DNA of 64,000 bases from Azonexus sp. GTDB taxonomy: Bacteria > Pseudomonadota > Gammaproteobacteria > Burkholderiales > Rhodocyclaceae. A program made the position numbers and the translations under genes. Where the stretch lies: positions 8,908-72,907 of the forward strand of contig JAUYEI010000014.1 of assembly GCA_030691385.1 (NCBI GenBank). The letters run 5' to 3'. This document shows, in pieces, positions 1 to 46,040 of the stretch (position 1 is its first letter; each line of letters starts with the position of its first letter). Below the pieces are notes generated by a model. It worked only from the letters and a program-made list of their open reading frames with translations, was not told the DNA's origin and ran no database searches.

Positions 1-2
1 CT

Positions 3-1166
3 TGCCAGCAGTGTGGTAACAAATGCCAGCACGAGCGAGTCTGCTATCAACGCAGGGGTGACTAGAACTCCCGCAGTAAAACCAGTGTCCATACCAGGAG
101 GAGGGGGCATGGGGATTCCAATCGCAGAAAGGATTACGCTAAGGATGTATCCAGTGGTGGCGCCCAACAAGCCTCCAATAACTCCGACAGTTACTCCTTC
201 GATAATAAATAGTCGAAGCACGCCATCTGTTCTGGTCCCCATTGCCAGCATTGTTCCGATTTCGGTTGTTCGCTCCAGGACACTCATTGTCTGGGTGTTG
301 GAAATTGTCAGAATGATGATCAACCCAATAATGAGCTTCATGAACTCGGTTTGTTTGCTGAACAGGCTAACTGTTTTGTTATAGAAATCGGCCATGTCGA
401 ACCACGGAACAACTTGGAAATGATCGGCAGATAGGTTGTTTTTGAGATCATCGACGGTATGCTTGGTGTTGCTTGTCTCTTTCAATAACAGTACCCAGGA
501 TGTTGCTCCAGTTACCCGCATCAGTTTCCGTGACGGTGTAAGCGGTAGTCTAAGTGCAGTATCGTCAAATTCCTTTGAGGCAGTGAAGAACGTTCCAACG
601 ACAGTAACTTCTACGGCGCTGGGAGCACCTTCTGCCGTCGTGGCAAATAAAACAACGTTGTCGCCGATGGTGACCCCAAGAGTTTTTGCCAAGCCCTCAC
701 CCAAAATCACGGTTCGTTCGTTGATTCCCGCCAGGTTGGAACCCTCGCGGATATGGATTTGATCGGATATGCGGGCTTCCTTCTCAGGATCCACGCCTTC
801 ACCGATAAAGATCGCCGTGGTGTCGCCATGGCTGATTAGGCCACTAAAAGCCAATCTTTCTGTCATTGAAACTACTATGGGTCTCTCAGAAATTGTCTTT
901 TGCTCGAGGGAGTTCGCGGGAAGAAGGAAACGGTACGGGTCGGCAATTCCCTTTTCGAGATATCCCGGACGAACAATCTGGATGTGTCCCAGTTGCGACC
1001 GTATGGTTGATTCACGCATGTTTTCGAAAATCCATTCGATAAAACCACCGGCAAGAAGGAAAGCAATTAATCCGGCGGCAACTGTGAGCACTGCCACAGC
1101 CGTTCTACCGCGATGGCGCTGCAGGTTTCTCAGGGCGATCTGAAAGTCAGTTTTTAACTGGAGCAT
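3..1166 (-). CDS. FtsX/LolE/MacB-family ABC transporter permease (partial, runs off left edge; not in ORF track)
   Basis: Manual translation from ATG at 1166: MLQLKTDFQIALRNLQRHRGRTAVAVLTVAAGLIAFLLAGGFIEWIFENMRESTIRSQLGHIQI..., typical 'ALRNL.R...RT' start. Frame is still in hydrophobic TM sequence (ALIADSLVLAFVTTLLA) at the window edge. Confidence 0.85.
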   Translation of the reverse strand, partial: MLQLKTDFQIALRNLQRHRGRTAVAVLTVAAGLIAFLLAGGFIEWIFENMRESTIRSQLGHIQIVRPGYLEKGIADPYRFLLPANSLEQKTISERPIVVSMTERLAFSGLISHGDTTAIFIGEGVDPEKEARISDQIHIREGSNLAGINERTVILGEGLAKTLGVTIGDNVVLFATTAEGAPSAVEVTVVGTFFTASKEFDDTALRLPLTPSRKLMRVTGATSWVLLLKETSNTKHTVDDLKNNLSADHFQVVPWFDMADFYNKTVSLFSKQTEFMKLIIGLIIILTISNTQTMSVLERTTEIGTMLAMGTRTDGVLRLFIIEGVTVGVIGGLLGATTGYILSVILSAIGIPMPPPPGMDTGFTAGVLVTPALIADSLVLAFVTTLLA

Positions 1167-1243
1167 TGGTTTGAATGGCAGTGTGATGTAATGTTGTGCA
1201 GACCATTGTAATACTGATTCCTTAGGACGAAAGGAGGCTGGCA

Positions 1244-2122
1244 ATGTTTGATTACGAAGCTGCGTTTTCCAGGAATATAGGGTGGGTGACTGAGAAAGAA
1301 CAGGCACGATTGCGTGAGTCGTGTGTTGCTATTGGCGGCATGGGCGGTGTAGGAGGCATTCACCTGCTGACCTTGGCGCGGCTAGGTATCGGTCGCTTCA
1401 GAATCTCGGAGTTTGATGAGTTCGAGATAGTCAATTTCAACCGCCAAGTCGGGGCTACGGTCAGTACTATTGGGCGTAAGAAGATTGACGTTCTGAAAGA
1501 GATGGCCTTAGACATTAATCCGGAGATTGAAATTGAACTCTTCCCGAATGGGGTTCAACCAGACAACGTTAGCGTATTTCTCAAGGGTGTTGACCTCTAC
1601 GTTGACGGGTTGGATTTTTTTGCGTTCGGTGCTCGACGTTTGACTTTCTCTGCTTGTGAAGCCAATGGAATTCCAGTTGTCACCGTCGCGCCCTTGGGGC
1701 TTGGTGCAGCAACGCTCGTATTTGCACAAGGTGGAATGTCTTTCGAAGATTATTTCGGCTTTGAGGGATGCGATGAAATGGAGATGGCAATCCGATTTCT
1801 TGTTGGTTTATCGCCCGCAATGCTTCAACGTGGTTACGTTGCCGATATGAGTCGGGTCAACCTGGCCGAACGACGGGGCCCGTCGAGTATTGCCGCCTGT
1901 CAACTATGTGCCGGGGTTGCTGCTGTTGAAACAATGAAGCTACTGCTCGGTCGGGGAGGTGTAAGGCTAGCCCCCTGGGGAAGCCAGTTTGATGCATATC
2001 GCATGCGGTATGTCCGCACCTGGCGTCCTGGTGGGTATCGGAATCCGCTACAGCGCCTGATGCGGAGTTTGGTTCGTCGGCAGTTGGCGCTGATGGCAAG
2101 GAAAACTGACAATGACTCGTGA
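1244..2122 (+). CDS. ThiF/MoeB-family adenylyltransferase (TyzB / OxzB N-domain-like)
   Basis: GGMGGVGG nucleotide-binding loop, EFDEFEIVNFNRQ and GRKKID motifs, no CxxC Zn sites. GGAGG RBS upstream. Confidence 0.85.
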   Translation: MFDYEAAFSRNIGWVTEKEQARLRESCVAIGGMGGVGGIHLLTLARLGIGRFRISEFDEFEIVNFNRQVGATVSTIGRKKIDVLKEMALDINPEIEIELFPNGVQPDNVSVFLKGVDLYVDGLDFFAFGARRLTFSACEANGIPVVTVAPLGLGAATLVFAQGGMSFEDYFGFEGCDEMEMAIRFLVGLSPAMLQRGYVADMSRVNLAERRGPSSIAACQLCAGVAAVETMKLLLGRGGVRLAPWGSQFDAYRMRYVRTWRPGGYRNPLQRLMRSLVRRQLALMARKTDNDS

Positions 2123-3185
2123 CGTGCTGATAAAAATTCTCGACCTGGTTCGTTGGGCGCCGAGTGGTGACAACACGCAGCCGTGGCAATTTGAAATCGT
2201 GGCAGACGATCATATTGCAGTACACGGTTTTGATACCAGGGAGCATGTCCTTTACGATTTTGATGGGCATCCGAGCCAGATGGCTCACGGTGCACTCATT
2301 GAAACATTGCGAATTGCGGCGAGTGGATTTCAGCTTGCGAGCGAGTGGCATGTGCGATCAGGATCTCCAGATAACGCTCCTGTTTATGATGTTCTATTGA
2401 GGAGCGCGCCGGATTTGTTGGCTGATCCGTTGCTGCCGTATATTGAAAAGCGTGTAGTCCAACGTCGTCCCATGCGTATGACACCACTCACTTCGGAACA
2501 GCGTAACAGTCTTTCACTGGCCACCGGCGGCAATTATTCCGTCCAGTTTTTCGAGAAGACGAGTGATCGGATCAAGGTGGCAAGATTGCTTTGGGATAAT
2601 GCATATATTCGTCTGACTTGCCCGGAAGCCTTCCTGGTACATAGGGAGATCATTGAATGGGGGGCGCGCTTTAGTCATGATCGCTTGCCTGAAGAGGCAA
2701 TTGGTGTTGATCCAATGACGGCCAAACTCATGAAGTGGGTGATGCAAAGCTGGGGCAGGGTGGAATTCTTCAATCGCTACCTGATGGGAACGGTTGCGCC
2801 ACGCATCCAGCTTGATTTTGTCCCGGCTATTGCTTGCGCGGGGCATCTGTTGCTTAAGCCGCGTAAACCACTAAATTCTTTGCATGATTACGTTGAGGCC
2901 GGAATGGCGATGCAACGTCTTTGGCTGACGGCTACTTCGCTTGGCTTGCATCTGCAACCAGAGATGACACCCGTGATATTTCGCTGGTATGCCAAGGCTG
3001 GTCGAGAAATATCGGCCCACTCGAAGATAAACAAAAAAGTTGAATTGATGGCTTCACGCTTTGAGCGCTTGGTTGAGGCTTCAAGTGATCAGAGCTTTGC
3101 TTTCTTTTGTCGAATTGGCCAATCGGTTCCCCCGAAATCCCGGTCTTTACGCAAGAGCCTGAGCCAACTGCTCGTTAGTAAATAG
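2112..3185 (+). CDS. Nitroreductase-superfamily protein (TyzC / OxzB C-domain-like)
   Basis: WAPSGDNTQPW N-terminal motif and AGMAMQRLWLTATSLGLHLQP second nitroreductase motif. Overlaps the ThiF gene by 11 nt. Confidence 0.8.
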   Translation: MTRDVLIKILDLVRWAPSGDNTQPWQFEIVADDHIAVHGFDTREHVLYDFDGHPSQMAHGALIETLRIAASGFQLASEWHVRSGSPDNAPVYDVLLRSAPDLLADPLLPYIEKRVVQRRPMRMTPLTSEQRNSLSLATGGNYSVQFFEKTSDRIKVARLLWDNAYIRLTCPEAFLVHREIIEWGARFSHDRLPEEAIGVDPMTAKLMKWVMQSWGRVEFFNRYLMGTVAPRIQLDFVPAIACAGHLLLKPRKPLNSLHDYVEAGMAMQRLWLTATSLGLHLQPEMTPVIFRWYAKAGREISAHSKINKKVELMASRFERLVEASSDQSFAFFCRIGQSVPPKSRSLRKSLSQLLVSK

Positions 3186-3209
3186 GTTTTGCATCATCAA
3201 CAATGACAA

Positions 3210-3240
3210 TAAAAAAGCCGCCCGAAGGCGGCTTTACTTT
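3210..3240 (-). terminator. Intrinsic terminator between converging nitroreductase and PEP-CTERM genes
   Basis: AAAGCCGCC-cgaa-GGCGGCTTT hairpin (3214-3235) with an A-run on the left (U-tail on the minus strand) and a T-rich right side. Confidence 0.8.
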
Positions 3241-3251
3241 TAGAGCAAGTA

Positions 3252-4049
3252 TTATTTGGCAGAACGGCGACGGCGGAGAGCACCAACGCCGAGCAAACCC
3301 AAGCCAACCAGAGCCAGAGAAGCGGGTTCAGGAACAACGGTGACTTGGTTGATGGTCAAGTCAAGTGCAACTTTGCTGCCAGTCGGGTCAATAATGGCCT
3401 GCAATGCGCCAAGATTTCCCCAATCAACCGCGCCGCCAGCGCCACAGGTGACGACAACGCCCGGAAGGCTGAACGTGTTGGTACAGTCAAGGAAGCCCAG
3501 CAGCGGAAGAAGACTTGATACGCCATTCGGAAGTACGGCGGGATTTACTTCGTGAGCGATCAAAGATACCTTGGACCATTGGGTGCTTGAGGTAAAGGCA
3601 CCGAGTTCAAAACCAAAATCGCCATCGGAAAAAATGGTCTTCAGCTCAATAAAAGTTCCGAAAGGATTGAACGATGCACCAAGTCCGAATATCGTCGGAT
3701 CCGAGAAAGACATTGCTGCGGTAGAGCCATCCCAACGAACCAAACCACGGCCGCCAGTCAGCGACTCAGTGCTGAACGACAGCGCGCCACCGGCAACTTG
3801 AATGCTGGCGGAACCACCAGGGTTAAACGGATCTTGATTCAGCACTTCGACACCAATGTCGCGATATCCGCCGATGATATCCGTGCCACCAGTCGCCACT
3901 TGAGAGAACAAAGCGTTACCATCAACGACGGTATCGGTGAGTTTGGCTTGTGAGGTGCTAAACAGGTCGATCGTGCTGATCAACGCTGCGTTTGCAGCGG
4001 AACTGAACGACAGTGCGACTACTGCTGCCGCGATAAGAGTTTTTTTCAT
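3252..4049 (-). CDS. PEP-CTERM sorting domain-containing secreted protein
   Basis: Signal peptide MKKTLIAAAVVALSFSSAANA (ATG 4049, GGAG RBS). C-terminus VPEPASLALVGLGLLGVGALRRRRSAK = PEP motif + TM helix + basic tail. Confidence 0.95.
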   Translation of the reverse strand: MKKTLIAAAVVALSFSSAANAALISTIDLFSTSQAKLTDTVVDGNALFSQVATGGTDIIGGYRDIGVEVLNQDPFNPGGSASIQVAGGALSFSTESLTGGRGLVRWDGSTAAMSFSDPTIFGLGASFNPFGTFIELKTIFSDGDFGFELGAFTSSTQWSKVSLIAHEVNPAVLPNGVSSLLPLLGFLDCTNTFSLPGVVVTCGAGGAVDWGNLGALQAIIDPTGSKVALDLTINQVTVVPEPASLALVGLGLLGVGALRRRRSAK

Positions 4050-4109
4050 GAGGATTCTCCGATGTGTCTGGATGGAAATTACAGTGTTTGAACTTACGCA
4101 GTGATCTAA

Positions 4110-4125
4110 AGCGATATGCGTGCCA
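4110..4125 (-). promoter_or_regulatory. sigma54 (-24/-12) promoter of the PEP-CTERM gene
   Basis: Minus strand TGGCACGCATATCGCT = GG-N10-GC, close to consensus TGGCAC-N5-TTGCW. Confidence 0.75.
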
Positions 4126-4200
4126 GCATGATAAAAACCTTTATTAGTCAGTTGGTAACGTTTTTTTTCTTCCTGCATGAGCGCTATCAAAAACAGCCCG

Positions 4201-4217
4201 TGTAAAACATTCCGACA
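4201..4217. promoter_or_regulatory. Upstream activator site (PEP-box-like, TGT-N11-ACA) for a sigma54 activator
   Basis: TGTAAAACATTCCGACA about 110 bp upstream of the inferred TSS. PEP-CTERM genes are known to carry such boxes with sigma54 sites (PrsR-type activator). Confidence 0.6.
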
Positions 4218-4257
4218 GTATTTTCTTCACCGGGCATTTCTGCGTCGCAAACGAAAC

Positions 4258-4962
4258 TCAAACAGATTTTGCGGCATTCTCTGGAAGCTGAGCGCTTGGC
4301 GCCGTTCTTCCAATCAATTTGGCCGGAATGCCACCCCATATTTCACCCGGGCCTATTTGGGTGCCTTTTGTTACTACAGCTCCGGTGGAAACAATAGCGC
4401 CATCGCCGATCGTCACGCCAGAAAGCACCGTTGCGCCAGCACCTATCGTTACATTGTTCCCCAATTGAATGGGGTAATGCGCCAGCTTTTTTCCCTCGAT
4501 CACGTGTGGAACAAGCAAAGCATACTGGCCAACAATACTATTTCTGCCAATTTCGACAAATTGCGCGTCGAGAATAATGCCTGAGCTATAGGTGTTAGCG
4601 CCAAGTTTTGCGCCCAAGCCCAGATACACCAATCGCATGATGGGCACGGGAACGAAGCCACTCCGCAGAATTGGGTAGAAAAGGATCAGATAAAACAAGA
4701 GGTAAACGTGGTAGACAAACTCCTGTTGAGATTCTTCCGGGATATCTCCGATGCGCAGTGGGAAGAACAACAGAAAGGCCCTGAAAAAAAATAAAGCGAA
4801 GGAGTAGATCAGAAGCCCGGAAAAAAAAACCACGGCTATTTCGTGGTATCCACCCAGCGGAATCAGCCTCGCCAACAGCAAGGCTAGGCCTATCCCCATG
4901 CTAACGGCCAGTGTCAGCAGCAGTGAAAACACAACTATCTGCCAACTGTTAATTTTTCTCAT
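4258..4962 (-). CDS. Membrane-anchored left-handed beta-helix (hexapeptide repeat) acyltransferase
   Basis: Three N-terminal hydrophobic segments, then hexapeptide repeats (IQLGNNVTIGAGATVLSGVTIGDGAIVSTGAVVT) ending in WGGIPAKLI. Confidence 0.8.
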   Translation of the reverse strand: MRKINSWQIVVFSLLLTLAVSMGIGLALLLARLIPLGGYHEIAVVFFSGLLIYSFALFFFRAFLLFFPLRIGDIPEESQQEFVYHVYLLFYLILFYPILRSGFVPVPIMRLVYLGLGAKLGANTYSSGIILDAQFVEIGRNSIVGQYALLVPHVIEGKKLAHYPIQLGNNVTIGAGATVLSGVTIGDGAIVSTGAVVTKGTQIGPGEIWGGIPAKLIGRTAPSAQLPENAAKSV

Positions 4963-5000
4963 CAAATAATCCTTGCACTCAAACGATTTTCAAAGACCCG

Positions 5001-6221
5001 TTATGTGTTGCTGAAGCTGTTTTTATCGTATTCGGCAATTATATGATGAGACAATGGGTGCAAGCCGCCAACCTGTCCTGGATTGCCAGCCAATTCCTCG
5101 GCGCGAGCCGCGTATTTCGGGTCGCCCGTGAGTAATTTGATGGCTTGCCGTAACTGGGTTGGGTGGGCACGGTCGGCACGAATCATTAGCCCGGCCCCAA
5201 AGGTTACGATAGCTTCCATATTGAGAAACTGATCCATGTTTTGGGCAATTCCCAAGACAGGTACTCCGCAGCTTAACGCCTGGTTGGTAGTCGGGCTTCC
5301 GCCGTTACAGATGACCAGGTTTGCGTGCTGGCAAACGACCGATCCTGGCAAGTAGTCGAAAATCTGCGTGGTTGGGCGCTTTGGTTTCAGTTGTAGAGGC
5401 TTTCCTGCCGTCGCTATAACTATCCTGCTTCCGGACTGCTCCAGGATAGGCACGATGCTCTCGATAATTTGTGGATTGCCGGAACTGCCCATGGTGATAT
5501 ATGTCAGTGGTCCGTTGCCTGAGAGGTAGTCCAAGTCCGCATCGAAATCGGGCGACCAGGCGATCGGGCCAATGAAGTCGGCACCTTTATGTGCCGATAC
5601 CTCAGGGAATAATGCTGGGAAGTTGGCAAACAATCGCAGGTCGGCGTCGGTGTAGCAGCGACGCAGGTCATAACCCAGCGAGGGTTGACCGAATTTTTTC
5701 CGTAGCCGTTCAAGTGGCAAGGCGTGCAGGTGGAATGCGAAGGGGGCTATTCGGCGAAAAATGAATTCGGCCAAATGGATTGGCGCGTAGCGGGTGAATT
5801 TAAAAACAGGCAGTGGTGGGCGTAGTGGTCTTTCCGGGCTCCAGTATGCATCGCAGATAGCGATGTAGGGGATTGACCGCAGACGAGCGCTTACTGACAG
5901 CGAGAGTCGAAAGTCGCCGATGACGACGTCAGGCTTTATTTGATCGATTAGGGAGAGATCTTCGTCCACATAACGGCAGAGCGTTGAGAAGTCATATAAG
6001 GGGGAGCCATGTGCCAGTTTTTGGGCAAATATCTTTGCGTCCTGACATTCGAGTCCGAGAACCGGGAAGGGCAGTCCTGCCGTGAGTTTTGAGAATGCTT
6101 CGGGGCGGCAAAGGGTGACATCAAACTGAGTTGCATCCAATTCTTTGGCCAGCATCAAGGGCCGTGCAACGTGGGCAAGGGTGGCTCCTTCGGCAAAGAA
6201 AAGCACTTTTAGCTTGTTCAA
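5001..6221 (-). CDS. GT1/MGT-like glycosyltransferase (GT-B fold); start approximate
   Basis: N-terminal FFAEGATLAHVARP, C-terminal YITMGSSG and ICNGGSPTT...GVPVLGIAQNMDQ motifs. TTG 6221 chosen to avoid overlap with the upstream gene. Confidence 0.8.
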   Translation of the reverse strand: MNKLKVLFFAEGATLAHVARPLMLAKELDATQFDVTLCRPEAFSKLTAGLPFPVLGLECQDAKIFAQKLAHGSPLYDFSTLCRYVDEDLSLIDQIKPDVVIGDFRLSLSVSARLRSIPYIAICDAYWSPERPLRPPLPVFKFTRYAPIHLAEFIFRRIAPFAFHLHALPLERLRKKFGQPSLGYDLRRCYTDADLRLFANFPALFPEVSAHKGADFIGPIAWSPDFDADLDYLSGNGPLTYITMGSSGNPQIIESIVPILEQSGSRIVIATAGKPLQLKPKRPTTQIFDYLPGSVVCQHANLVICNGGSPTTNQALSCGVPVLGIAQNMDQFLNMEAIVTFGAGLMIRADRAHPTQLRQAIKLLTGDPKYAARAEELAGNPGQVGGLHPLSHHIIAEYDKNSFSNT

Positions 6222-6270
6222 TGGGATACCCGTGACCTGTTTTGGGGGCGGTGAGCACCCATAAGCCAAG

Positions 6271-7608
6271 TTAAAAACTGTAGCGGACCTCTGAATAGAC
6301 GCGATCCTGCTGGTCATATCTTCCAAACAGGCCAGTTGGAGGCCCCTTGAAGATATCAGTGCCAATCAACAGGCGCCAATTGCGTTCAAAGTTCCAGGTC
6401 AAACGTGGGCGCAGTAGCCAATCATTCCGGTTCAGGCTGGAAATGAAAATGGCTTGGGCTTCCCAGTTGTTGATGAATTTACTGTTGAATAGAAGGCTGT
6501 AGCCGTTTTCTTCCTTGTCCGGAATCTGGGTGGCGTTGTAGTTGGAATAACGACGCTGGAATAGCTGAACATTGAAACGACTTTCAGCTGGAAGGGTGAA
6601 ATCGAGGCCGACGGCCCAGTCGAGTGTATTTTGTCGAACGACACCATCACTGTCGGCAAGGTCCAGTACGCTGAAGCTGCGGCCTGTCGTATATACGCCT
6701 TCGGCCTTCAAGACCACGTCTCCGAAGTCCTTGGACAGCGTGCTCCCGTATTGATGGATACGGTCGTGGCGCGCTTGATAGACGACTGTCGGGCCATCGA
6801 ATTGGCGGTAGAAGGTTGGGCTGATATCTGTGCTGCGGTAGTAGAAGCCTGAAATGTCCCAGCCATTTTTCAGGGTTGAGAGGCGTAGACCGTAGTTCAT
6901 GTTGTCGGCGTTACGCTCCGGTCTTGTTTCCGGGAGGTAGCGCACGTTGGGGGCTGCGGGCATTGGATAAAATCCCGAACCGGGTTTGCCGATGTTGTCG
7001 TAGGTGGCGACTGGAATCCATAGCAATTCGGCGTGGAAGTCGTTGGCAAAGTATTCAGCGCGGGCGGCCCATTGTGGAATGCGCATCTGGTCGAATTCGG
7101 GGAGAACGAATTCTCGGAGATCGCGGGCGGAGACGACATCGGCGAAGAACAGGCCGACCATTTCACCCCAGACGACGTGCTGTTTGCCGAAACGGAAGTC
7201 CCAGTTGCCAGTGCTGTAGTCAAGGTAGTTTTCGCGAAGTTCCACGTTGTAGCGTTGATTGCGTTCGACATCGGCAGGGTAGTAGTCGTTGATGCTGTAG
7301 GCCGCGTCGTAGCCCAAGCGTGCGCCCAACTTCCATTTGAGTCCTTCGCCCAGTTTGCCGGAGCTGCCGAGTTCAGCACGTGTGCGAAGTTTCGACCAGT
7401 GTTCTGGATTGCCAGTCGTCCGAGCGGCTTCAAACTGAAGAAAACCTTTAATTCCGGGGGAGGTGTCCTTGGCAGGCGCGGATACCGTTGGCAGGTCGTC
7501 GCCGAAAAGTGCATCGCGGCTCAATAAATTGTCGGCGGCGTTTGCCCCGAGTGCCAAGTAGCTGGCCGCTATGATGGTCAGGCGGTGGACGGTTTTTTGT
7601 GCAGTCAC
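6271..7608 (-). CDS. Outer-membrane beta-barrel protein (DUF1302-like)
   Basis: Signal peptide after GTG 7608 (AGGA RBS), LRENYLDY...RFGKQHVVWG motif, alternating beta-strand pattern, C-terminal YSF. Confidence 0.7.
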   Translation of the reverse strand: MTAQKTVHRLTIIAASYLALGANAADNLLSRDALFGDDLPTVSAPAKDTSPGIKGFLQFEAARTTGNPEHWSKLRTRAELGSSGKLGEGLKWKLGARLGYDAAYSINDYYPADVERNQRYNVELRENYLDYSTGNWDFRFGKQHVVWGEMVGLFFADVVSARDLREFVLPEFDQMRIPQWAARAEYFANDFHAELLWIPVATYDNIGKPGSGFYPMPAAPNVRYLPETRPERNADNMNYGLRLSTLKNGWDISGFYYRSTDISPTFYRQFDGPTVVYQARHDRIHQYGSTLSKDFGDVVLKAEGVYTTGRSFSVLDLADSDGVVRQNTLDWAVGLDFTLPAESRFNVQLFQRRYSNYNATQIPDKEENGYSLLFNSKFINNWEAQAIFISSLNRNDWLLRPRLTWNFERNWRLLIGTDIFKGPPTGLFGRYDQQDRVYSEVRYSF

Positions 7609-7636
7609 GGGGTATTCCTGTCTTGCGGTAAGGTAT

Positions 7637-8386
7637 TTATTCGTCGTCGGATTCGGGCAGTGCGCGAACACGCGCCAGGTTCCAGGTTTTGTCGGTTTCG
7701 TTGCGCACACCGAAGGCGGTGATGCAGCCATCTTCCATCTGGACCAGACGGTCAGCACGATCAATGACTTTCTGGTCGTGCGTCGAGAATATGAATGTGG
7801 TTTTCAGGTGGCGGTTGATCTTCTTCATCAGGCTGAGGATTTCGCGGCCGGTTGCCTTGTCGAGGTTGGCGGTTGGCTCATCGGCCAGGACGATGCTGGG
7901 CTTGATGGCCAGGGCGCGGGCAATGGCGACACGTTGGCGTTGTCCGCCGCTTAGCTGATTGGGGCGGTGGTTGGCAAATTGGCTGAGACCAACGATATCC
8001 AGGAAGTAGTCGACCCGCATTTTGCGTTCTTCGGCGGAAATATCGGTGCGACGGAGCAGGGGGTATTCGACGTTTTCCGCAGCAGAAAGAACTGGGAGCA
8101 GATTGAAGGTCTGAAAGATGAAGCCGATTGAGCGAGAGCGCAGATCGGCTAGTTCGTTGGCAGATTTTTCCGAGACGTCTTCATCGTTGATAAATATCTT
8201 GCCGCGAGTCGGTTTGTCGATGCAACCGATCAGGTTGAGCAGGGTGGTTTTGCCACTGCCGGATGGGCCGGAGATGGCGAGAAAGACGCCTGCATCAATG
8301 GACCATGTAATATCATTCAAGGCGTGGACGGTCTGTTCGCCGAGCTGGTAATCCTTGAAAACGTGTTCGATTCGGACAACGCTCAT
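7637..8386 (-). CDS. LolD/MacB-family ABC transporter ATP-binding protein
   Basis: GPSGSGKTT Walker A, LSGGQRQRVAIARAL signature, LADEPTANLD Walker B, STHD switch. Confidence 0.92.
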   Translation of the reverse strand: MSVVRIEHVFKDYQLGEQTVHALNDITWSIDAGVFLAISGPSGSGKTTLLNLIGCIDKPTRGKIFINDEDVSEKSANELADLRSRSIGFIFQTFNLLPVLSAAENVEYPLLRRTDISAEERKMRVDYFLDIVGLSQFANHRPNQLSGGQRQRVAIARALAIKPSIVLADEPTANLDKATGREILSLMKKINRHLKTTFIFSTHDQKVIDRADRLVQMEDGCITAFGVRNETDKTWNLARVRALPESDDE

Positions 8387-8440
8387 GACCGGTTTCTGCC
8401 GTCAGTATTTAGACCATCAGGATTGTGCGGGAGAGTATTC

Positions 8441-9235
8441 ATGGCAAGTAATAACTGCATTCGGAATGGCCGGTGGTGCGTTGCGCTGACGTGTGGCATT
8501 TTTCTCTTGCTCCAGTCGCTGACTGTTGCAGCGCAAGGATCAACTGTTGCGCCGACCGATGATGCGATTGCCCGCAGTATAGTTGAAAAGGCAGACAAGG
8601 TTCGCTTTCCGGCCGAAGGCTTTCAGGTTGACATTGTAATAAATTCCCTGCGGCCGGACAAAGAGGCCGATACCCGAAAATACCGTGTTCTTTCAAAGGG
8701 AAATGAAAACACGGTCGTCATGGTTACCGAACCGGCAGCGGAGCGTGGTCAGATCATTCTCATGAAAGGGCGCGATCTGTGGGTCTTCATGCCGGAGGTA
8801 TCTCAGCCGGTCCGGATTTCGCTGGCGCAGCGCCTGACGGGGCAGGTGGCCAACGGCGATCTGGCGCGTGCCAATTTCGCCGGTGACTACAATCCGAAAA
8901 TCATCGGTACCGAAAAAATCGGCAACGATATTTTTCAAATTCTTGAATTAATTGCCGTTGACCGTAGCGTTACCTATCAGCGCGTCGTTTATTGGGTCAA
9001 TGAAAAGTCCGGCTGGCCTTTGAAGGCCGAGTTCTACTCGCTGTCCAACCGCCTCATGAAGAAATGCAGCTACGAGAATTTCCAGACGTTGGCCGGACGG
9101 GTTCGACCAACCCGGCTGGTCATGGAGGATGCACTGCGCAATGGGGAAAAATCCGTTCTGGATTACTCGGATATGAAATTACGCGATTTGCCGGACAAGG
9201 TCTTTACCAAGGAATACCTGAAGAAGCTGGACTGA
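8441..9235 (+). CDS. Outer-membrane lipoprotein-sorting (LolA-like) periplasmic protein
   Basis: Signal peptide, then G..ILMKGRDLWVFMP...PVRISLAQRLTGQVANGDL motif typical of LolA-like sorting proteins. ATG 8441 with GGGAG RBS. Confidence 0.75.
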   Translation: MASNNCIRNGRWCVALTCGIFLLLQSLTVAAQGSTVAPTDDAIARSIVEKADKVRFPAEGFQVDIVINSLRPDKEADTRKYRVLSKGNENTVVMVTEPAAERGQIILMKGRDLWVFMPEVSQPVRISLAQRLTGQVANGDLARANFAGDYNPKIIGTEKIGNDIFQILELIAVDRSVTYQRVVYWVNEKSGWPLKAEFYSLSNRLMKKCSYENFQTLAGRVRPTRLVMEDALRNGEKSVLDYSDMKLRDLPDKVFTKEYLKKLD

Positions 9236-9239
9236 GCGA

Positions 9240-9611
9240 TTAGTCGAAGATCAGTGCTGCAGCCACCTTCCTGCCTTCGGCGGCAAGGATGTTGTAGGTC
9301 CGGCAGGCGGCTTTCAGGTCCATGATTTCCAGCCCGATGCCGGCCGGGGCGAAGGGGCGGAGCAGGGCGCCGGGTGGGAAGCGCAGGCTTTTTCCGGTGC
9401 CGAGCAGGACGATTTCGGTACCTAAACCCAGCAGAATTTGCATGTCTGCTTCGCTCAAAGTGTTGACGGTCGCAGTGGTCCAGGCAGGAATGATCGACTC
9501 GGGTAGCAGAATCAGGTTTTTCTCGTGTTTTTCGTGGTTGACCACAGCATAGTCGTCGCCATAGGCGGTGAATAAATTAAGTCCTGCGGTATTCGAGATG
9601 TGTAGTTTCAC
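9240..9611 (-). CDS. Mth938-like (DUF498) protein
   Basis: VLLGTGKSLRFP and LEIMDLKAACRTYNILAAEGRKVAAAL motifs. Real start GTG 9611; the track ORF is extended through antisense alaA. Confidence 0.88.
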   Translation of the reverse strand: MKLHISNTAGLNLFTAYGDDYAVVNHEKHEKNLILLPESIIPAWTTATVNTLSEADMQILLGLGTEIVLLGTGKSLRFPPGALLRPFAPAGIGLEIMDLKAACRTYNILAAEGRKVAAALIFD

Positions 9612-9719
9612 TGCGCGATCATTCCGAAAAGCCCGCCAAAATTGCGGTGCACCATACGATAAAGTAGGATTATACCTTTGGCCCTCACGGGCCATACGCC
9701 GCCAAGCCGGAAGATTCCA

Positions 9720-44762: not shown

Positions 44763-45392
44763 CTAGAAGCTCAGACTGCCGAGCGGACGGTGCAGCAGCA
44801 CCGCCGGCGCATCCACCCGGGGGCAGGTGCGAACGGTACCAATCTGCGAAAACCCGAATTCCCGGCGGTAGTAGGCCGCATGACGCGGATTGACTTCGAT
44901 GACCGCATCGGTCACGCCAAAAACTGCCCGGGCGTATTGATAACTTGAGCGGAAAAGTGATTTCAGCAATTCGGGATCATGGGCATCGACATCCACCGCC
45001 AGCCTTGTTACTTCGCAGAGAACGCGGGACGGCTGGCGCAGCCCGGCCAGTTCCTCGGCGTAGAGATTGTCGGCGAGCAGGCCGGCGCTGGAATCGCGCG
45101 AAGCGGTCAGCGTCGCCACCAGTTCGCCCTCCAGCCAGGCGCCCAGCGTCGCGTGATTCGGATCTTCGATCAGTTGTCGCGGTGGCGAAATCCGGTAGCC
45201 GCGCCAGGCGTACATGCGGCGAACCAGGGCGCTGCAGGCACGGTGCTGGTGGTAGCTCACGGCTGGGGCAACCACCAGTTCCGGTTGCTCAAAACCCCTG
45301 CTGGAGCCGAGCGAACCCGGCCGCAAGGCAGCTAGCATTAAGCCGGGCCGGAGCGTCGAACTTGAGGGTATGACGTTTTGCATAGTCTGCAT
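44763..45392 (-). CDS. FeeM-type N-acyl amino acid synthase (GNAT-like)
   Basis: RRMYAWRGY, GLLADNLY, LCEVTRLAV, VIEVNPRHAAYY...GF, CPRVDAPAVLL match the FeeM/NAS catalytic domain as recalled. ATG at 45392 or 45383. Confidence 0.75.
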   Translation of the reverse strand: MQTMQNVIPSSSTLRPGLMLAALRPGSLGSSRGFEQPELVVAPAVSYHQHRACSALVRRMYAWRGYRISPPRQLIEDPNHATLGAWLEGELVATLTASRDSSAGLLADNLYAEELAGLRQPSRVLCEVTRLAVDVDAHDPELLKSLFRSSYQYARAVFGVTDAVIEVNPRHAAYYRREFGFSQIGTVRTCPRVDAPAVLLHRPLGSLSF

Positions 45393-45415
45393 TCTATGGC
45401 TTATGCAATTTGCAA

Positions 45416-45976
45416 TCAACCGGCTACGGCAACGGCGCTGAGTGTTTTTGCCGTTTCGTCGCGGAGGTGAAAGGGCGTCGATTTCTCGGCCGACAGGGCG
45501 TTGATGTCGCCGCACAATTCGCCGCCTTCATCGATGACCAGCTTGCCGTAGCGGATCTTGCCGTGCACCTTGCCGGTCGCGTGGATGATCAGTTGCGAGC
45601 GGGCAGTCAGTTCGCCTTCGAAGCAGCCGTGAATTTCGGCGATGTCGATGCTGACCTTGCCCGAGAACGAGCCATTGTCGGCGATGCGGATAACCCGGCT
45701 GTCCATGGTCGCTTCGACGCGCCCTTCGACGACCAGCGTGTCGCAATCGAGAATTTCGGCGCCCTTGAGTTTGACATCGGGGCCGACGATCAGGCGGGCG
45801 CCCATGACGTTTTCAGCCGGCGACTCGGTCTTTTCCGGCTGCGGGGCTGGTGTAGCTGCTGTGTTGCTTGGTGCAGCAGAGACGTTAAGGTTGCTGGCGG
45901 CACTGCCCAGAATATTATTGACCTCCTTGTGGGTGATGGCGTCATTGCGATTGGGGATGCTGGGTTTGTTGAACAC
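45416..45976 (-). CDS. Bactofilin (polymer-forming cytoskeletal protein)
   Basis: Disordered N-terminus, then LIVGPDVKLKG...LVVEGRVE...IHGCFEGEL...TGKVHGKIRYGKLVIDEGG beta-helix repeats. GTG start with GGGAG RBS. Confidence 0.88.
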   Translation of the reverse strand: MFNKPSIPNRNDAITHKEVNNILGSAASNLNVSAAPSNTAATPAPQPEKTESPAENVMGARLIVGPDVKLKGAEILDCDTLVVEGRVEATMDSRVIRIADNGSFSGKVSIDIAEIHGCFEGELTARSQLIIHATGKVHGKIRYGKLVIDEGGELCGDINALSAEKSTPFHLRDETAKTLSAVAVAG

Positions 45977-46024: not shown

Positions 46025-46040
46025 TGCGATAAGCGTGCCA
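46025..46040 (-). promoter_or_regulatory. sigma54 promoter of the bactofilin-FeeM operon
   Basis: Minus strand TGGCACGCTTATCGCA (GG-N10-GC). Confidence 0.78.

What the first reader, a model, noticed from the sequence alone, without database searches (positions are those of the whole stretch)
1..9235. PEP-CTERM locus packaged with lipid-modifying enzymes and a Lol-like export route
Seen: one block, visibly AT-richer than the backbone by eye (not computed), holds a PEP-CTERM protein, ThiF + nitroreductase, a GT1 glycosyltransferase, a membrane LbH acyltransferase, an OM beta-barrel, a LolD-like ATPase, a LolA-like carrier and an FtsX-like permease. Established: PEP-CTERM proteins are exosortase substrates whose final anchor is not well defined, and N-acyl amino acid synthases co-occur with PEP-CTERM systems. 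Inference: the block makes, glycosylates and acylates a small lipid and ships it across the periplasm, possibly as the anchor or partner of PEP-CTERM proteins in floc/EPS formation.
Basis: partly seen in the sequence, partly recalled or inferred. Interest (0 to 1): 0.68.

Follow-up and report, generated by a model that had tools for sequence, protein, structure and literature searches.

The report
Oxazolone-type lipid genes with Lol-like exporter
Beside the slime-and-floc (XrtA/PEP-CTERM) genes of a Dechloromonas-like bacterium lies a conserved module that most likely makes a small fatty-acyl amino-acid (oxazolone-type) lipid, decorates it with a sugar, and carries it to the outer membrane through its own Lol-like transporter. 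This gives a testable idea of what such lipids do in floc formation.

Summary
All nine genes lie where stated, and the block has 51.8% GC against 61.1% for the genome. It runs 6.4 kb past the window's left edge into a second FtsX permease and the canonical XrtA/PEP-CTERM polysaccharide genes.

ThiF and the nitroreductase are the two halves of a known enzyme type (OxzB; TyzB/TyzC; TrzS). That type turns N-acyl amino acids into dehydro or oxazolone lipids.

In 96 related loci ThiF travels with these partners:
- a nitroreductase;
- a divergent pair of LolC/E-like permeases (66 loci);
- a PEP-CTERM gene (within 5 kb in 50 of 80 loci, usually behind a sigma-54 promoter);
- often the ATPase, DUF1302 barrel and LolA-like trio.

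In 150 genomes of the order, this ThiF occurs in 32 of 50 XrtA-positive genomes and 3 of 100 XrtA-negative ones.

Particular to this window: there is no synthase in the block (a FeeM-type one lies 36 kb away), and a GT1 plus membrane acetyltransferase tailoring pair is present.

The "anchor of PEP-CTERM proteins" idea is untested.

The chemistry is published. The link to an exporter and to XrtA was not found in the papers I could search. This scan has reported the same module on other DNA several times.

The parts
3..1307 (-). LolC/E-like permease 'FtsX_B'. Its 3' end runs off the window; the whole gene is L002:8841-10214(-). The real start is probably near 1169 (MLQLKTDF...). A second permease, 'FtsX_A', follows just left of the window at L002:7615-8844(-).
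   Evidence: PF12704 MacB_PCD plus PF02687 FtsX. TIGR02212 lolCE scores 112 and 95 bits, below the cut-off of 362. Topology is 1+3 hydrophobic segments with a large loop. The housekeeping lolCE is on contig C34 at 527 bits. A permease pair lies within 10 kb of ThiF in 66 of 96 related loci, in most of them directly upstream and divergent.
1244..2122 (+). ThiF-like ATP-dependent adenylating enzyme/cyclase of the OxzB-N/TyzB type.
   Evidence: NF006077 scores 470 bits (cut-off 266). It aligns to the N-terminal half of the ThiF-nitroreductase fusion family NF011424 (306 bits, positions 23-300 of 679), while ThiF/MoeB models score 79 bits or less. The nearest solved homologues are the cyclodehydratase TcdA and PaaA.
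2112..3185 (+). Nitroreductase-superfamily flavin-dependent oxidase (TyzC / OxzB-C type). It overlaps the ThiF stop by 11 nt.
   Evidence: PF00881. It aligns to the C-terminal halves of NF005901 Rv1355c family (113 bits, positions 375-718 of 722) and NF011424 (83 bits, positions 327-678 of 679), and to the Acg family at 102 bits. A gene of this family lies next to ThiF in 59 of 80 loci. A second, divergent subfamily fills the place in several others.
3214..3235 (-). Intrinsic terminator after the PEP-CTERM gene.
   Evidence: A 9-bp stem with 6 GC pairs followed by a T-run. It is the strongest terminator-like site in 1-9600.
3252..4049 (-). PEP-CTERM protein: signal peptide, a passenger domain with no family match, then the tail VPEPASLALVGLGLLGVGALRRRRSAK.
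   Evidence: PF07589 and TIGR02595 above cut-off. The ATG at 4049 follows GGAGAA. The tail belongs to the minority 'PEPxSLAL' class of this genome.
4111..4125 (-). Sigma-54-type -24/-12 element TGGCACGCATATCGC, about 60 nt upstream of the PEP-CTERM start codon.
   Evidence: A motif of this type lies upstream of 41 of 76 PEP-CTERM ORFs in the related loci, where about 1 is expected.
4258..4965 (-). Membrane-anchored left-handed beta-helix (hexapeptide) acyl/acetyltransferase. Accessory tailoring enzyme.
   Evidence: PF00132. The best NCBIfam match is the TM-flanked terminal domain of Pls/PosA synthetases, below cut-off. The nearest solved structures are maltose and galactoside O-acetyltransferases. 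Hydrophobic segments lie within residues 5-107. It is present in 13 of 80 loci, 12 of them together with GT1.
5001..6365 (-). GT1 glycosyltransferase of the natural-product (MGT/EryCIII/CalG/OleD/YjiC) type. Accessory tailoring enzyme. The real start is probably downstream of 6365.
   Evidence: PF06722, PF04101, TIGR01426. PDB matches are CalG1, YjiC and OleD. It is present in 20 of 80 loci, scattered over the ThiF tree with 14 changes of state.
6271..7764 (-). Outer-membrane DUF1302-family beta-barrel. The signal peptide ends ...ALGANA/ADN. The real start is probably near 7608.
   Evidence: PF06980 55.6 bits (cut-off 23.2), with weak porin O/P and Wzi matches. N-terminal sequence. It gains and loses together with the LolA-like gene: 12 independent pairs, about 9 go the same way and none the other.
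7637..8386 (-). ABC ATPase, LolD/DevA-like.
   Evidence: PF00005. TIGR02211 LolD 224 bits (cut-off 308) and TIGR02982 DevA 220 bits (cut-off 296), both below cut-off.
8441..9235 (+). Periplasmic LolA-superfamily carrier (the ORF opens at 8324; the likely start is the ATG at 8441). It has a signal peptide and no lipobox.
   Evidence: PF17131 LolA_like, 164 bits. E = 2.8e-98 to PDB 3BUU, 'uncharacterized LolA superfamily protein NE2245' of Nitrosomonas europaea. It is the only PF17131 gene in the genome.
44763..45515 (-). Candidate supplier of the substrate: a FeeM-type N-acyl amino acid synthase. It lies outside the finding, in a sigma-54 operon with a bactofilin gene.
   Evidence: PF21926, 163 bits. 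It is 46% identical to synthases that sit inside ThiF loci of other genera. In all four other-family genomes of the first sample that have ThiF, its best homologue lies within about 8 kb of ThiF, directly adjacent in two.

Best explanation
The block is an accessory module of the XrtA/PEP-CTERM floc and exopolysaccharide system, with three functional parts.

(1) Biosynthesis, in the cytoplasm. An N-acyl aromatic amino acid is desaturated by the nitroreductase-type flavin oxidase. The ThiF-like enzyme then adenylates and cyclises it to a dehydro or oxazolone lipid, as shown for OxzB, TyzB/TyzC and TrzS. In this genome the N-acyl amino acid is probably made by the FeeM-type synthase 36 kb away. 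In about half of the related loci a synthase is encoded in the locus.

(2) Tailoring, at the inner membrane. In this lineage a natural-product-type GT1 adds a sugar and the membrane-anchored hexapeptide transferase O-acetylates or acylates it. A few other loci carry an O-methyltransferase at this place.

(3) Export. A LolCDE-like pump (two paralogous MacB-type permeases plus one ATPase, with no membrane-fusion protein) hands the lipid to a soluble LolA-like carrier. A DUF1302 barrel receives it at the outer membrane.

A sigma-54-driven, separately terminated gene for an XrtA-type PEP-CTERM protein sits in the middle.

Shown here: gene identities, split-enzyme homology, conserved linkage and phyletic association with XrtA. 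Inferred: the substrate, the product, the cargo of the exporter, and any role in PEP-CTERM protein or polysaccharide attachment.
For: Enzyme identity:
- ThiF exceeds the NF006077 cut-off. ThiF and the nitroreductase align in order to the two halves of the fused families NF011424 and NF005901.
- The genes overlap by 11 nt.
- The published function of such pairs is given in 10.1101/2020.06.11.147165, PMC10404671, PMC12856293 and PMC12479983.
- The nearest solved ThiF homologue is the cyclodehydratase TcdA.

Linkage in 96 related loci spanning Rhodocyclaceae, Zoogloea, Thauera, Azoarcus, Accumulibacter, Nitrosospira, Thiobacillus, Sulfuricella, Janthinobacterium, Ferrovum and Thioalkalivibrio:
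- permease pair in 66 loci;
- N-acyl amino acid synthase in about 50 (TIGR03694 at 269 bits, or FeeM at 198 bits);
- LolA-like gene in 36;
- XrtA locus head in 44.
- A PEP-CTERM ORF lies within 3 kb of ThiF in 43 of 80 loci. The genome background of 5.5 per Mb predicts about 4%.
- These adjacencies change 10-27 times on the ThiF tree yet persist.

Phyletic pattern:
- In the genus, all 12 ThiF-positive genomes have an XrtA locus, and none of 19 without XrtA has ThiF. The LolA-like gene is in 11 of 12 ThiF-positive genomes against 4-5 of 24 ThiF-negative ones.
- In 150 genomes of the order at 90% completeness or more, ThiF is in 32 of 50 XrtA-positive and 3 of 100 XrtA-negative genomes.

Exporter:
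- It is not the housekeeping Lol system.
- One genome has synthase plus exporter without ThiF (L124).
- DUF1302 barrels paired with LolA-superfamily proteins are implicated in handling hydrophobic small molecules elsewhere (PMC6394551 and 10.1101/2020.07.04.188060).
Against: - No N-acyltransferase lies in this block, and no TIGR03694 member is in the genome. The proposed supplier sits in another operon with another predicted activator, and it also occurs in 9 of 24 ThiF-negative genomes of the genus.
- No product has been measured for any PEP-CTERM-linked ThiF/nitroreductase pair.
- MacB/Lol-type pumps take substrates from the periplasmic face, so a flipping step is unaccounted for.
- The barrel, ATPase and LolA-like trio can lie elsewhere in the genome (G005) or occur without ThiF (G027, G033).
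- The PEP-CTERM gene is its own transcription unit, so its presence may reflect co-regulation or cassette history rather than shared biochemistry.
- Genomes compared are related, so the counts overstate independence.
Confidence: 0.6

Rival explanations
1. Same chemistry, different purpose. The exported N-acyl amino-acid derivative is a diffusible or vesicle-borne signal, in the way LuxI-type products are. It controls sigma-54/Prs-dependent PEP-CTERM and polysaccharide genes and is not a structural surface lipid or anchor.
For: The synthases in these loci belong to the FeeM/autoinducer-synthase fold; PF00765 gives a weak match. The adjacent PEP-CTERM gene is typically sigma-54 dependent. PrsT and the Prs regulators lie nearby in several loci (PMC3684757). 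Oxazolone production is inducible in proteobacteria (PMC12856293).
Against: A three-part route ending in an outer-membrane barrel with a LolA-like carrier is more elaborate than a small amphiphilic signal would need. No receptor gene is conserved in the module. Glycosylation and acetylation would make an unusual signal.
Confidence: 0.15
2. The Lol-like transporter set has its own cargo, such as a lipoprotein, a lipid-linked polysaccharide primer or a PEP-CTERM protein. It merely shares the XrtA neighbourhood with an unrelated ThiF/nitroreductase pathway.
For: The trio of barrel, ATPase and LolA-like gene is found away from ThiF in G005 and without ThiF in G027 and G033. The permeases and ATPase resemble LolCDE most closely. 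The published Rubrivivax table lists these genes simply as part of the polysaccharide cluster.
Against: The permease pair abuts ThiF in most of the 66 of 96 loci that have it, including at least 25 with no XrtA polysaccharide gene within 10 kb. [quoted passage not shown] The LolA-like gene is in 11 of 12 ThiF-positive genomes of the genus against 4-5 of 24 ThiF-negative ones.
Confidence: 0.13
3. ThiF and the nitroreductase act on a protein or peptide, not on a free lipid. The C-terminal residue of a protein is formally an N-acyl amino acid. ThiF could therefore adenylate or cyclise the cytoplasmic C-terminus of the PEP-CTERM tail, or that of a small peptide, as E1-like enzymes do for ThiS, MoaD or MccA.
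For: A PEP-CTERM gene is the most constant non-enzymatic neighbour of ThiF and the nitroreductase, even where no synthase or exporter is nearby (L035). The C-terminus of the PEP-CTERM tail is predicted to face the cytoplasm. ThiF-family enzymes classically activate protein C-termini (PMC10404671).
Against: C-terminal residues of the neighbouring PEP-CTERM proteins are not conserved; they end in K, A, V, Q, S, R, G and others. Their passenger domains fall into at least five unrelated families. A free-lipid synthase is present in about half of the loci. The enzymes are close homologues of ones shown to act on free N-acyl amino acids.
Confidence: 0.07
4. The block is a horizontally acquired low-GC island whose genes have no functional coupling.
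For: GC is 9 points below the genome mean. Gene content around ThiF is fluid.
Against: The same gene families recur together across many genera and several orders despite rearrangement. The flanking canonical XrtA genes share the low GC. There is a strong phyletic association with XrtA.
Confidence: 0.05

Closest known systems
OxzA/OxzB oxazolone synthetase (Pseudoalteromonas rubra and other proteobacteria; bioRxiv 10.1101/2020.06.11.147165)
   Same: A ThiF-like domain plus a nitroreductase-type domain acting on N-acyl aromatic amino acids. The window's two proteins align in order to the two halves of the fused family. About half of the related loci carry an OxzA/FeeM-like N-acyltransferase.
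   Different: Here the enzyme is split into two overlapping genes and no N-acyltransferase lies in the block. The pair is embedded with a Lol-like exporter, a GT1 and acetyltransferase pair and a PEP-CTERM gene at an XrtA locus. That paper mentions none of these.
TyzA/TyzB/TyzC and TrzA/TrzS of Mycobacterium tuberculosis (PMC10404671, PMC12856293)
   Same: TyzB (ThiF homologue, ATP-dependent cyclisation) and TyzC (flavin-dependent oxidase, desaturation) are separate proteins, as here. The window's oxidase scores best against the Rv1355c (TrzS) family's C-terminal half.
   Different: Those are actinobacterial, with an adjacent acyltransferase and MmpL9 as the neighbouring transporter. They have no exosortase context and no glycosylation.
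N-acyl dehydrotyrosine clusters (stieleriacines, thalassotalic and kyonggic acids): NasY + ThiF + nitroreductase + methyltransferase (PMC12479983)
   Same: The same trio with a tailoring enzyme. Loci L033, L034 and L035 carry an O-methyltransferase with the pair and have no GT1 match. In those clusters the final product is the open dehydro-amino acid, not the oxazolone, which may also hold here.
   Different: They come from Planctomycetota or marine gammaproteobacteria. No dedicated Lol-like export set or PEP-CTERM linkage is reported.
LolCDE-LolA-LolB lipoprotein sorting pathway
   Same: Two paralogous MacB-type permeases, one ATPase, no membrane-fusion protein, and a soluble LolA-superfamily periplasmic carrier.
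   Different: All components score below the Lol equivalog cut-offs, and the real lolCE is elsewhere. The carrier belongs to PF17131, not to LolA proper. The outer-membrane receiver is a DUF1302 barrel, not the lipoprotein LolB. The presumed cargo is a small lipid.
DUF1302 barrel + DUF1329 (LolA-superfamily) pairs: AmeA/AmeB of Castellaniella defragrans, PP_0765/PP_0766 of Pseudomonas putida (PMC6394551; 10.1101/2020.07.04.188060)
   Same: An outer-membrane DUF1302 barrel paired with a periplasmic LolA-superfamily protein, genetically tied to handling of hydrophobic small molecules.
   Different: Those pairs work with RND pumps and BNR proteins, not with an ABC pump. Their biochemical role is itself unsettled.
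TIGR03694 'PEP-CTERM/exosortase system-associated acyltransferase' and the NAS-exosortase link (Craig, Cherry and Brady 2011, J Bacteriol 193:5707; the paper is not held, only cited by papers that are)
   Same: [quoted passage not shown] TIGR03694 members sit next to the permease pair and ThiF in 31 of the 96 loci.
   Different: This genome has no TIGR03694 member. I could not check whether that paper noticed the ThiF/nitroreductase pair or the exporter.
Rubrivivax gelatinosus psc1 biofilm cluster and Thauera sp. MZ1T homologues (PMC3684757)
   Same: The published gene table lists two ThiF-type genes, an ABC permease, an ATPase and exported proteins directly before the XrtA-locus polysaccharide export gene. 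This is the same arrangement as here.
   Different: The genes were listed only. No function was proposed, and the starred transposon-hit genes in the stretch of the table that I read are other genes.

Membership tests
Acyl-oxazolone / N-acyl-dehydroamino-acid synthetase (OxzB; TyzB+TyzC; TrzS) | ThiF-like adenylating/cyclising component of the OxzB/TyzB clade, as opposed to the sulfur-carrier E1s ThiF and MoeB | tested here: met
   NF006077 470 bits (cut-off 266). N-terminal half of fusion family NF011424 306 bits. ThiF/MoeB models 79 bits or less. The same model also hits 660-740-aa fused ORFs in the order.
Acyl-oxazolone / N-acyl-dehydroamino-acid synthetase (OxzB; TyzB+TyzC; TrzS) | Nitroreductase-superfamily flavin-dependent oxidase fused to, or adjacent to, the ThiF component | tested here: met
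   The adjacent gene overlaps ThiF by 11 nt. It aligns to the C-terminal halves of NF005901 (113 bits) and NF011424 (83 bits).
Acyl-oxazolone / N-acyl-dehydroamino-acid synthetase (OxzB; TyzB+TyzC; TrzS) | Dedicated N-acyltransferase (OxzA/TyzA/NasY) in the same cluster | tested here: not met
   None lies in window 1-9235 or in the 9 kb to its left. The genome has a FeeM-type synthase at 44763-45515. About 50 of 96 related loci do carry one.
Acyl-oxazolone / N-acyl-dehydroamino-acid synthetase (OxzB; TyzB+TyzC; TrzS) | Product is an acyl-oxazolone or N-acyl-dehydroamino acid | not testable with these tools
   Needs LC-MS of mutants or heterologous expression.
LolCDE-LolA-LolB lipoprotein pathway | Permeases and ATPase are LolC/LolE/LolD equivalogs | tested here: not met
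   TIGR02212 scores 112 and 95 bits (cut-off 362). TIGR02211 scores 224 bits (cut-off 308). A true lolCE at 527 bits is on C34.
LolCDE-LolA-LolB lipoprotein pathway | Architecture: heterodimeric MacB-type permeases, one ATPase, a soluble periplasmic LolA-fold carrier, and no membrane-fusion protein | tested here: met
   Two adjacent paralogous permeases, one ATPase, and a PF17131 protein with a signal peptide. No HlyD-type match among the 18 ORFs scanned.
LolCDE-LolA-LolB lipoprotein pathway | Outer-membrane lipoprotein receptor LolB | tested here: not met
   No LolB-like gene is in the block. A DUF1302 barrel takes the corresponding place.
XrtA/PEP-CTERM system | Substrate with a C-terminal PEP motif, a hydrophobic helix and a basic cluster | tested here: met
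   PF07589 28.7 bits (cut-off 20.7) and TIGR02595 25.2 bits (cut-off 16). The tail reads VPEPASLALVGLGLLGVGALRRRRSAK.
XrtA/PEP-CTERM system | Exosortase A and the type-1 polysaccharide locus are present in the genome | tested here: met
   XrtA-EpsI on C50, 352 bits (cut-off 208), flanked by the stp1 and stp2 glycosyltransferases. TIGR03027, 03007, 03018, 03016 and 03015 are all above cut-off directly left of the window, and the contig-cut TIGR03006 deacetylase gene matches as a fragment below its cut-off.
XrtA/PEP-CTERM system | Processing of this protein by XrtA, and the nature of its final attachment | not testable with these tools
   Only the tail class is suggestive. This genome has two classes (5 'PEPxSLAL', 14 'PEPE[ST]YAM') and two exosortases, XrtA and XrtB.
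DUF1302 outer-membrane barrel (PF06980) | Pfam model above the gathering score, plus a signal peptide | tested here: met
   55.6 bits (cut-off 23.2). The N-terminus reads ...TIIAASYLALGANA/ADN. There is no sequence match in the PDB.
MacAB-TolC / DevBCA-type tripartite ABC exporters | A membrane-fusion (HlyD/DevB) adaptor encoded with the pump | tested here: not met
   No such gene is in the block or its left flank. The ATPase does score 220 bits to the DevA subfamily, below the cut-off of 296.

The most novel reading that the evidence does not exclude
The exported product is a reactive azlactone (oxazolone) lipid that acts as an acyl donor at the cell surface. It would lipidate free amines, for example the glucosamine residues made by the XrtA-locus polysaccharide deacetylase, or serve as the partner onto which XrtA-processed PEP-CTERM proteins are fixed. 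That would supply the missing attachment chemistry of the exosortase system. It would also explain why N-acyl amino acid synthases track PEP-CTERM genomes.
Probability: 0.1. Interest if true: 0.85.

Novelty: new variant of a known kind. Interest (0 to 1): 0.58.

Why it matters
Two open questions meet here. The first is what acyl-oxazolone and N-acyl-dehydroamino-acid lipids are for; their enzymology was solved between 2020 and 2025, but their role is unknown. The second is why N-acyl amino acid synthases follow the PEP-CTERM/exosortase system, and what exosortase substrates end up attached to.

A conserved module joins the lipid enzymes, a dedicated inner-to-outer-membrane route and a sigma-54-driven PEP-CTERM gene at the head of the XrtA locus. 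That makes both questions testable by ordinary knock-outs and lipidomics in floc-forming wastewater bacteria such as Zoogloea, Thauera, Dechloromonas and Accumulibacter, where flocculation has practical importance. It also suggests a cargo for the uncharacterised LolA-like protein NE2245 (PDB 3BUU) and for DUF1302 barrels.

Tried and rejected
I therefore have no expression or operon evidence from reads.
- Craig et al. 2011 (PMC3187218) is not held. I could not check whether it had already noted ThiF, the nitroreductase or the ABC genes.
- Full-text searches found no paper that joins oxazolone or ThiF/nitroreductase chemistry with exosortase/PEP-CTERM. One gene table (Rubrivivax) lists the genes without interpretation.
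- PDB sequence searches with the barrel and the nitroreductase gave nothing.
- TIGR03694 is not in this genome.
- I tested whether the PEP-CTERM neighbours form one family. They do not: only three of ten clusters are remotely related, and the window's cluster matches another over 32 columns only.
- I considered that the block is the genuine Lol system. Rejected: the true lolCE is elsewhere and all scores are below cut-off.
- I considered a MacAB/DevBCA-type pump. Rejected: no adaptor gene.
- I considered sulfur-carrier ThiF/MoeB chemistry. Rejected on model scores.
- I considered a RiPP-like action on the PEP-CTERM tail. Kept as a low-probability rival.
- I ran no structure predictions, because sequence models already placed every protein.

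Full report
**What is there**

| Window position | Gene | Key evidence |
|---|---|---|
| 3-1307(-) | MacB/FtsX-type permease, cut by the window edge | |
| 1244-2122(+) | ThiF-family protein | NF006077, 470 bits, cut-off 266 |
| 2112-3185(+) | nitroreductase-superfamily protein | overlaps ThiF by 11 nt |
| 3252-4049(-) | PEP-CTERM protein | PF07589, TIGR02595 above cut-off |
| 4258-4965(-) | hexapeptide transferase | about three hydrophobic segments before the beta-helix part |
| 5001-6365(-) | GT1 of the macrolide/EryCIII type | |
| 6271-7764(-) | DUF1302 barrel | PF06980 above cut-off |
| 7637-8386(-) | LolD/DevA-like ATPase | |
| 8324-9235(+) | PF17131 LolA-like protein | 164 bits |

GC is 51.8% against 61.1% for the genome. 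That places the block in the lowest 0.9% of windows of its size.

**The block is larger than the finding**

The window is G000:C108:8908-72907. The 8.9 kb to its left hold the rest of the first permease, a second paralogous permease, and then the canonical XrtA/PEP-CTERM polysaccharide genes. These are the exporter TIGR03027, chain-length determinant TIGR03007, tyrosine kinase TIGR03018, outer-membrane protein TIGR03016 and ATPase TIGR03015, all above their curated cut-offs. They are followed by wecB and the contig-cut start of the deacetylase TIGR03006 gene. The low GC covers this part too. XrtA itself, fused to EpsI and flanked by stp1 and stp2, is on contig C50. An XrtB is on C14.

**What ThiF and the nitroreductase are**

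ThiF aligns to positions 23-300 of the 679-residue ThiF-nitroreductase fusion family NF011424, at 306 bits. The nitroreductase aligns to positions 327-678 of the same model, and to positions 375-718 of the Rv1355c family. ThiF and MoeB models reach at most 79 bits. The pair is therefore a split version of the di-domain enzyme.

Published work shows what this enzyme type does:
- OxzB, together with the N-acyltransferase OxzA, makes acyl-oxazolones (10.1101/2020.06.11.147165).
- In M. tuberculosis the separate TyzC (flavin oxidase) desaturates N-acyl-tyrosine and TyzB (ThiF homologue) cyclises it with ATP (PMC10404671).
- The trzAS locus lies beside rv1354c and rv1357c, so its fused synthetase TrzS is evidently Rv1355c; the locus makes tryptazolones (PMC12856293).
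- The same trio, with a methyltransferase, is tied to N-acyl-dehydrotyrosines such as stieleriacines (PMC12479983).

The nearest solved homologue of the window's ThiF is the ATP-dependent cyclodehydratase TcdA. An earlier first-reader note on this stretch (e1-5274052) gave me the oxazolone lead. I checked it against the models and the papers.

**Neighbourhood conservation**

I fetched 16 loci from relatives and 80 from the species-representative genome collection, all anchored on ThiF. I scored them with the window's proteins.

Of the 96 loci:
- 66 have the permease pair, in most of them directly upstream of ThiF and divergent;
- 44 have the head of the XrtA polysaccharide locus within 10 kb;
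- 36 have the LolA-like gene, which gains and loses together with the barrel (12 independent pairs, about 9 the same way, none opposite);
- 21 have the GT1.

In the 80-locus set, 59 have a nitroreductase of the window's subfamily. A second, divergent subfamily fills the place in several others. Thirteen have the LbH gene, 12 of them together with GT1.

The organisms span Dechloromonas, Azonexus, Propionivibrio, Thauera, Azoarcus, Aromatoleum, Accumulibacter, Zoogloea, Nitrosospira, Thiobacillus, Sulfuricella, Ferrovum, Janthinobacterium, Duganella, Rubrivivax and Thioalkalivibrio. On a ThiF tree these adjacencies change 10-27 times. The linkage is therefore not one frozen ancestral arrangement.

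**The missing acyltransferase**

De novo clustering of the neighbours found two families of N-acyl amino acid synthases:
- One is TIGR03694, the 'PEP-CTERM/exosortase system-associated acyltransferase' (269 bits, cut-off 112). It usually lies beside the permease pair or directly upstream of ThiF.
- The other is FeeM-type (PF21926, 198 bits). It resembles the N-terminal part of the 989-residue family NF011425.

About 50 of the 96 loci carry one of them. This window's lineage does not, and the genome has no TIGR03694 member. It does have a FeeM-type synthase at window 44763-45515, in a bactofilin operon. That protein is 46% identical to in-locus synthases of other genera. In all four other-family genomes of the first sample that carry ThiF, the best homologue of this synthase lies within about 8 kb of ThiF, directly adjacent in two. 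In the genus it is present in 10 of 12 ThiF-positive and 9 of 24 ThiF-negative genomes. It is a plausible supplier but not an exclusive one.

**The PEP-CTERM gene**

A PEP-CTERM-tailed ORF lies within 3 kb of ThiF in 43 of 80 loci and within 5 kb in 50, mostly right after the nitroreductase. This genome has 19 such ORFs, or 5.5 per Mb, so about 4% would be expected by chance.

The passenger domains fall into at least five unrelated families, and the C-terminal residues vary. The association is therefore with the sorting class, not with one protein.

All but one of the 76 tails in the fetched stretches, and every tail within 5 kb of ThiF, are of the 'PEPxxLALxGLGL' kind. This genome has 5 tails of that kind and 14 of a 'PEPE[ST]YAM' kind, alongside one XrtA and one XrtB. 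Assigning the two classes to the two exosortases is an inference.

In the window the gene has its own sigma-54-type element, TGGCACGCATATCGC, at 4125-4111, about 60 nt before the ATG. It also has the strongest terminator of the region at 3235-3214. A motif of this type lies upstream of 41 of 76 PEP-CTERM ORFs in the loci, where about one is expected.

**Phyletic pattern**

In 36 genomes of the genus:
- All 12 with ThiF have an XrtA locus. For one of them this was seen only as adjacent polysaccharide genes, in a genome 75% complete.
- None of 19 without XrtA has ThiF.
- The LolA-like gene is in 11 of 12 ThiF-positive genomes and 4-5 of 24 ThiF-negative ones.

In 150 genomes drawn evenly from the order, all at least 90% complete, ThiF above the NF006077 cut-off occurs in 32 of 50 XrtA-positive and 3 of 100 XrtA-negative genomes. 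In at least 11 it sits on the same contig as XrtA, 10-72 kb away. Related genomes are not independent, so these numbers describe the pattern and do not test it.

**The transport set**

It has the Lol architecture: two paralogous MacB-type permeases, one ATPase, no membrane-fusion protein and a soluble LolA-fold carrier. It is not the Lol system. All scores are below the equivalog cut-offs, the real lolCE lies on C34 at 527 bits, and the receiver is a DUF1302 barrel rather than LolB.

The carrier is a close homologue (E = 2.8e-98) of the structural-genomics protein NE2245, PDB 3BUU. DUF1302 barrels paired with LolA-superfamily proteins are tied to hydrophobic small molecules in Castellaniella (AmeA/AmeB) and Pseudomonas putida.

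The trio can lie apart from ThiF (G005) or occur without it (G027, G033). In G042 the exporter sits with a TIGR03694 synthase and no ThiF. This fits an N-acyl amino-acid-derived cargo with optional further processing.

**Tailoring**

The GT1's nearest solved relatives are the small-molecule glycosyltransferases CalG1, YjiC and OleD. The LbH protein's nearest are maltose and galactoside O-acetyltransferases. They travel together (7 independent pairs, about 4 go the same way and almost never the other, which is underpowered).

Loci L033, L034 and L035 carry an O-methyltransferase with the pair and have no GT1 match. I infer alternative decorations of the same scaffold: here a sugar that is then acetylated at the membrane.

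**Verdict**

Its mechanism is right in outline: a small lipid is made and shipped across the periplasm in the PEP-CTERM context. It missed the known identity of the core enzymes, and it placed the acylation step on the wrong enzyme.

The enzyme chemistry is published, and the link between N-acyl amino acid synthases and exosortase is known. I found no text that describes the joining of the split oxazolone-type pair, a Lol-like exporter and a sigma-54 PEP-CTERM gene at the XrtA locus. The only trace is an uninterpreted gene table for Rubrivivax and Thauera.

This scan has reached the same reading on other genomes several times. The present window adds the variant without an in-cluster synthase, the GT1/LbH pair, the promoter and terminator anatomy, the tail-class observation and the order-wide cross-tabulation.

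Whether the lipid anchors, lipidates, signals for or merely accompanies PEP-CTERM proteins remains open.

Noticed in passing
whole genome G000 (for example C24:48671-50228, C84, C102; the block's own gene at window 3252-4049): The 19 PEP-CTERM ORFs fall into two tail classes. Fourteen read VPEPE[ST]YAM[LF]LAGLG and five read VPEPxSLALxGLGLLG. The genome has exactly two exosortases, XrtA (C50) and XrtB (C14). The ThiF-adjacent proteins here and in the related loci are all of the second class. This suggests the tail class tells which exosortase handles a substrate.
   Followed up: partly
window 46026-46040(-) compared with 4111-4125(-): The sigma-54-type element before the bactofilin/FeeM-synthase operon (TGGCACGCTTATCGC) differs in one base from the one before the PEP-CTERM gene (TGGCACGCATATCGC). 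Both units are thus probably RpoN-dependent. Whether they share an activator is unknown.
   Followed up: no
L121 (G033:C34:1-16500): A same-genus genome, 99% complete, has PEP-CTERM, GT1, barrel, ATPase and LolA-like genes (92% identical carrier) starting at a contig edge. No ThiF and no XrtA were found anywhere in that genome. This is either a remnant after loss of the XrtA side or an assembly or binning gap.
   Followed up: no
L025:10537-13077 (G017:C1): The FtsX_B permease gene appears split into two pieces (229 and 196 aa) by a 364-aa ORF. This may be an insertion element inside the exporter gene of a complete genome.
   Followed up: no
L033:7496-10471, L034:7401-10416, L035:10493-12577: In three loci an O-methyltransferase (FlxJ/BchU-like, below cut-off) lies with the nitroreductase and ThiF, and no GT1 match is found. 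This parallels the methylated stieleriacines.
   Followed up: partly
order sample, (G096, G170, G090, G143, G125, G118, G073): In seven XrtA-positive genomes of the order, the ThiF match lies in a 660-740-aa open frame. So the fused OxzB-type form and the split form both occur in exosortase genomes.
   Followed up: no
window 9240-10949: The low-GC block ends right after the LolA-like gene. The next gene (9678-10949, +) looks like a class I/II aminotransferase, and GC rises to 58% or more. A long antisense ORF (9240-10499, -) over it is probably spurious.
   Followed up: no
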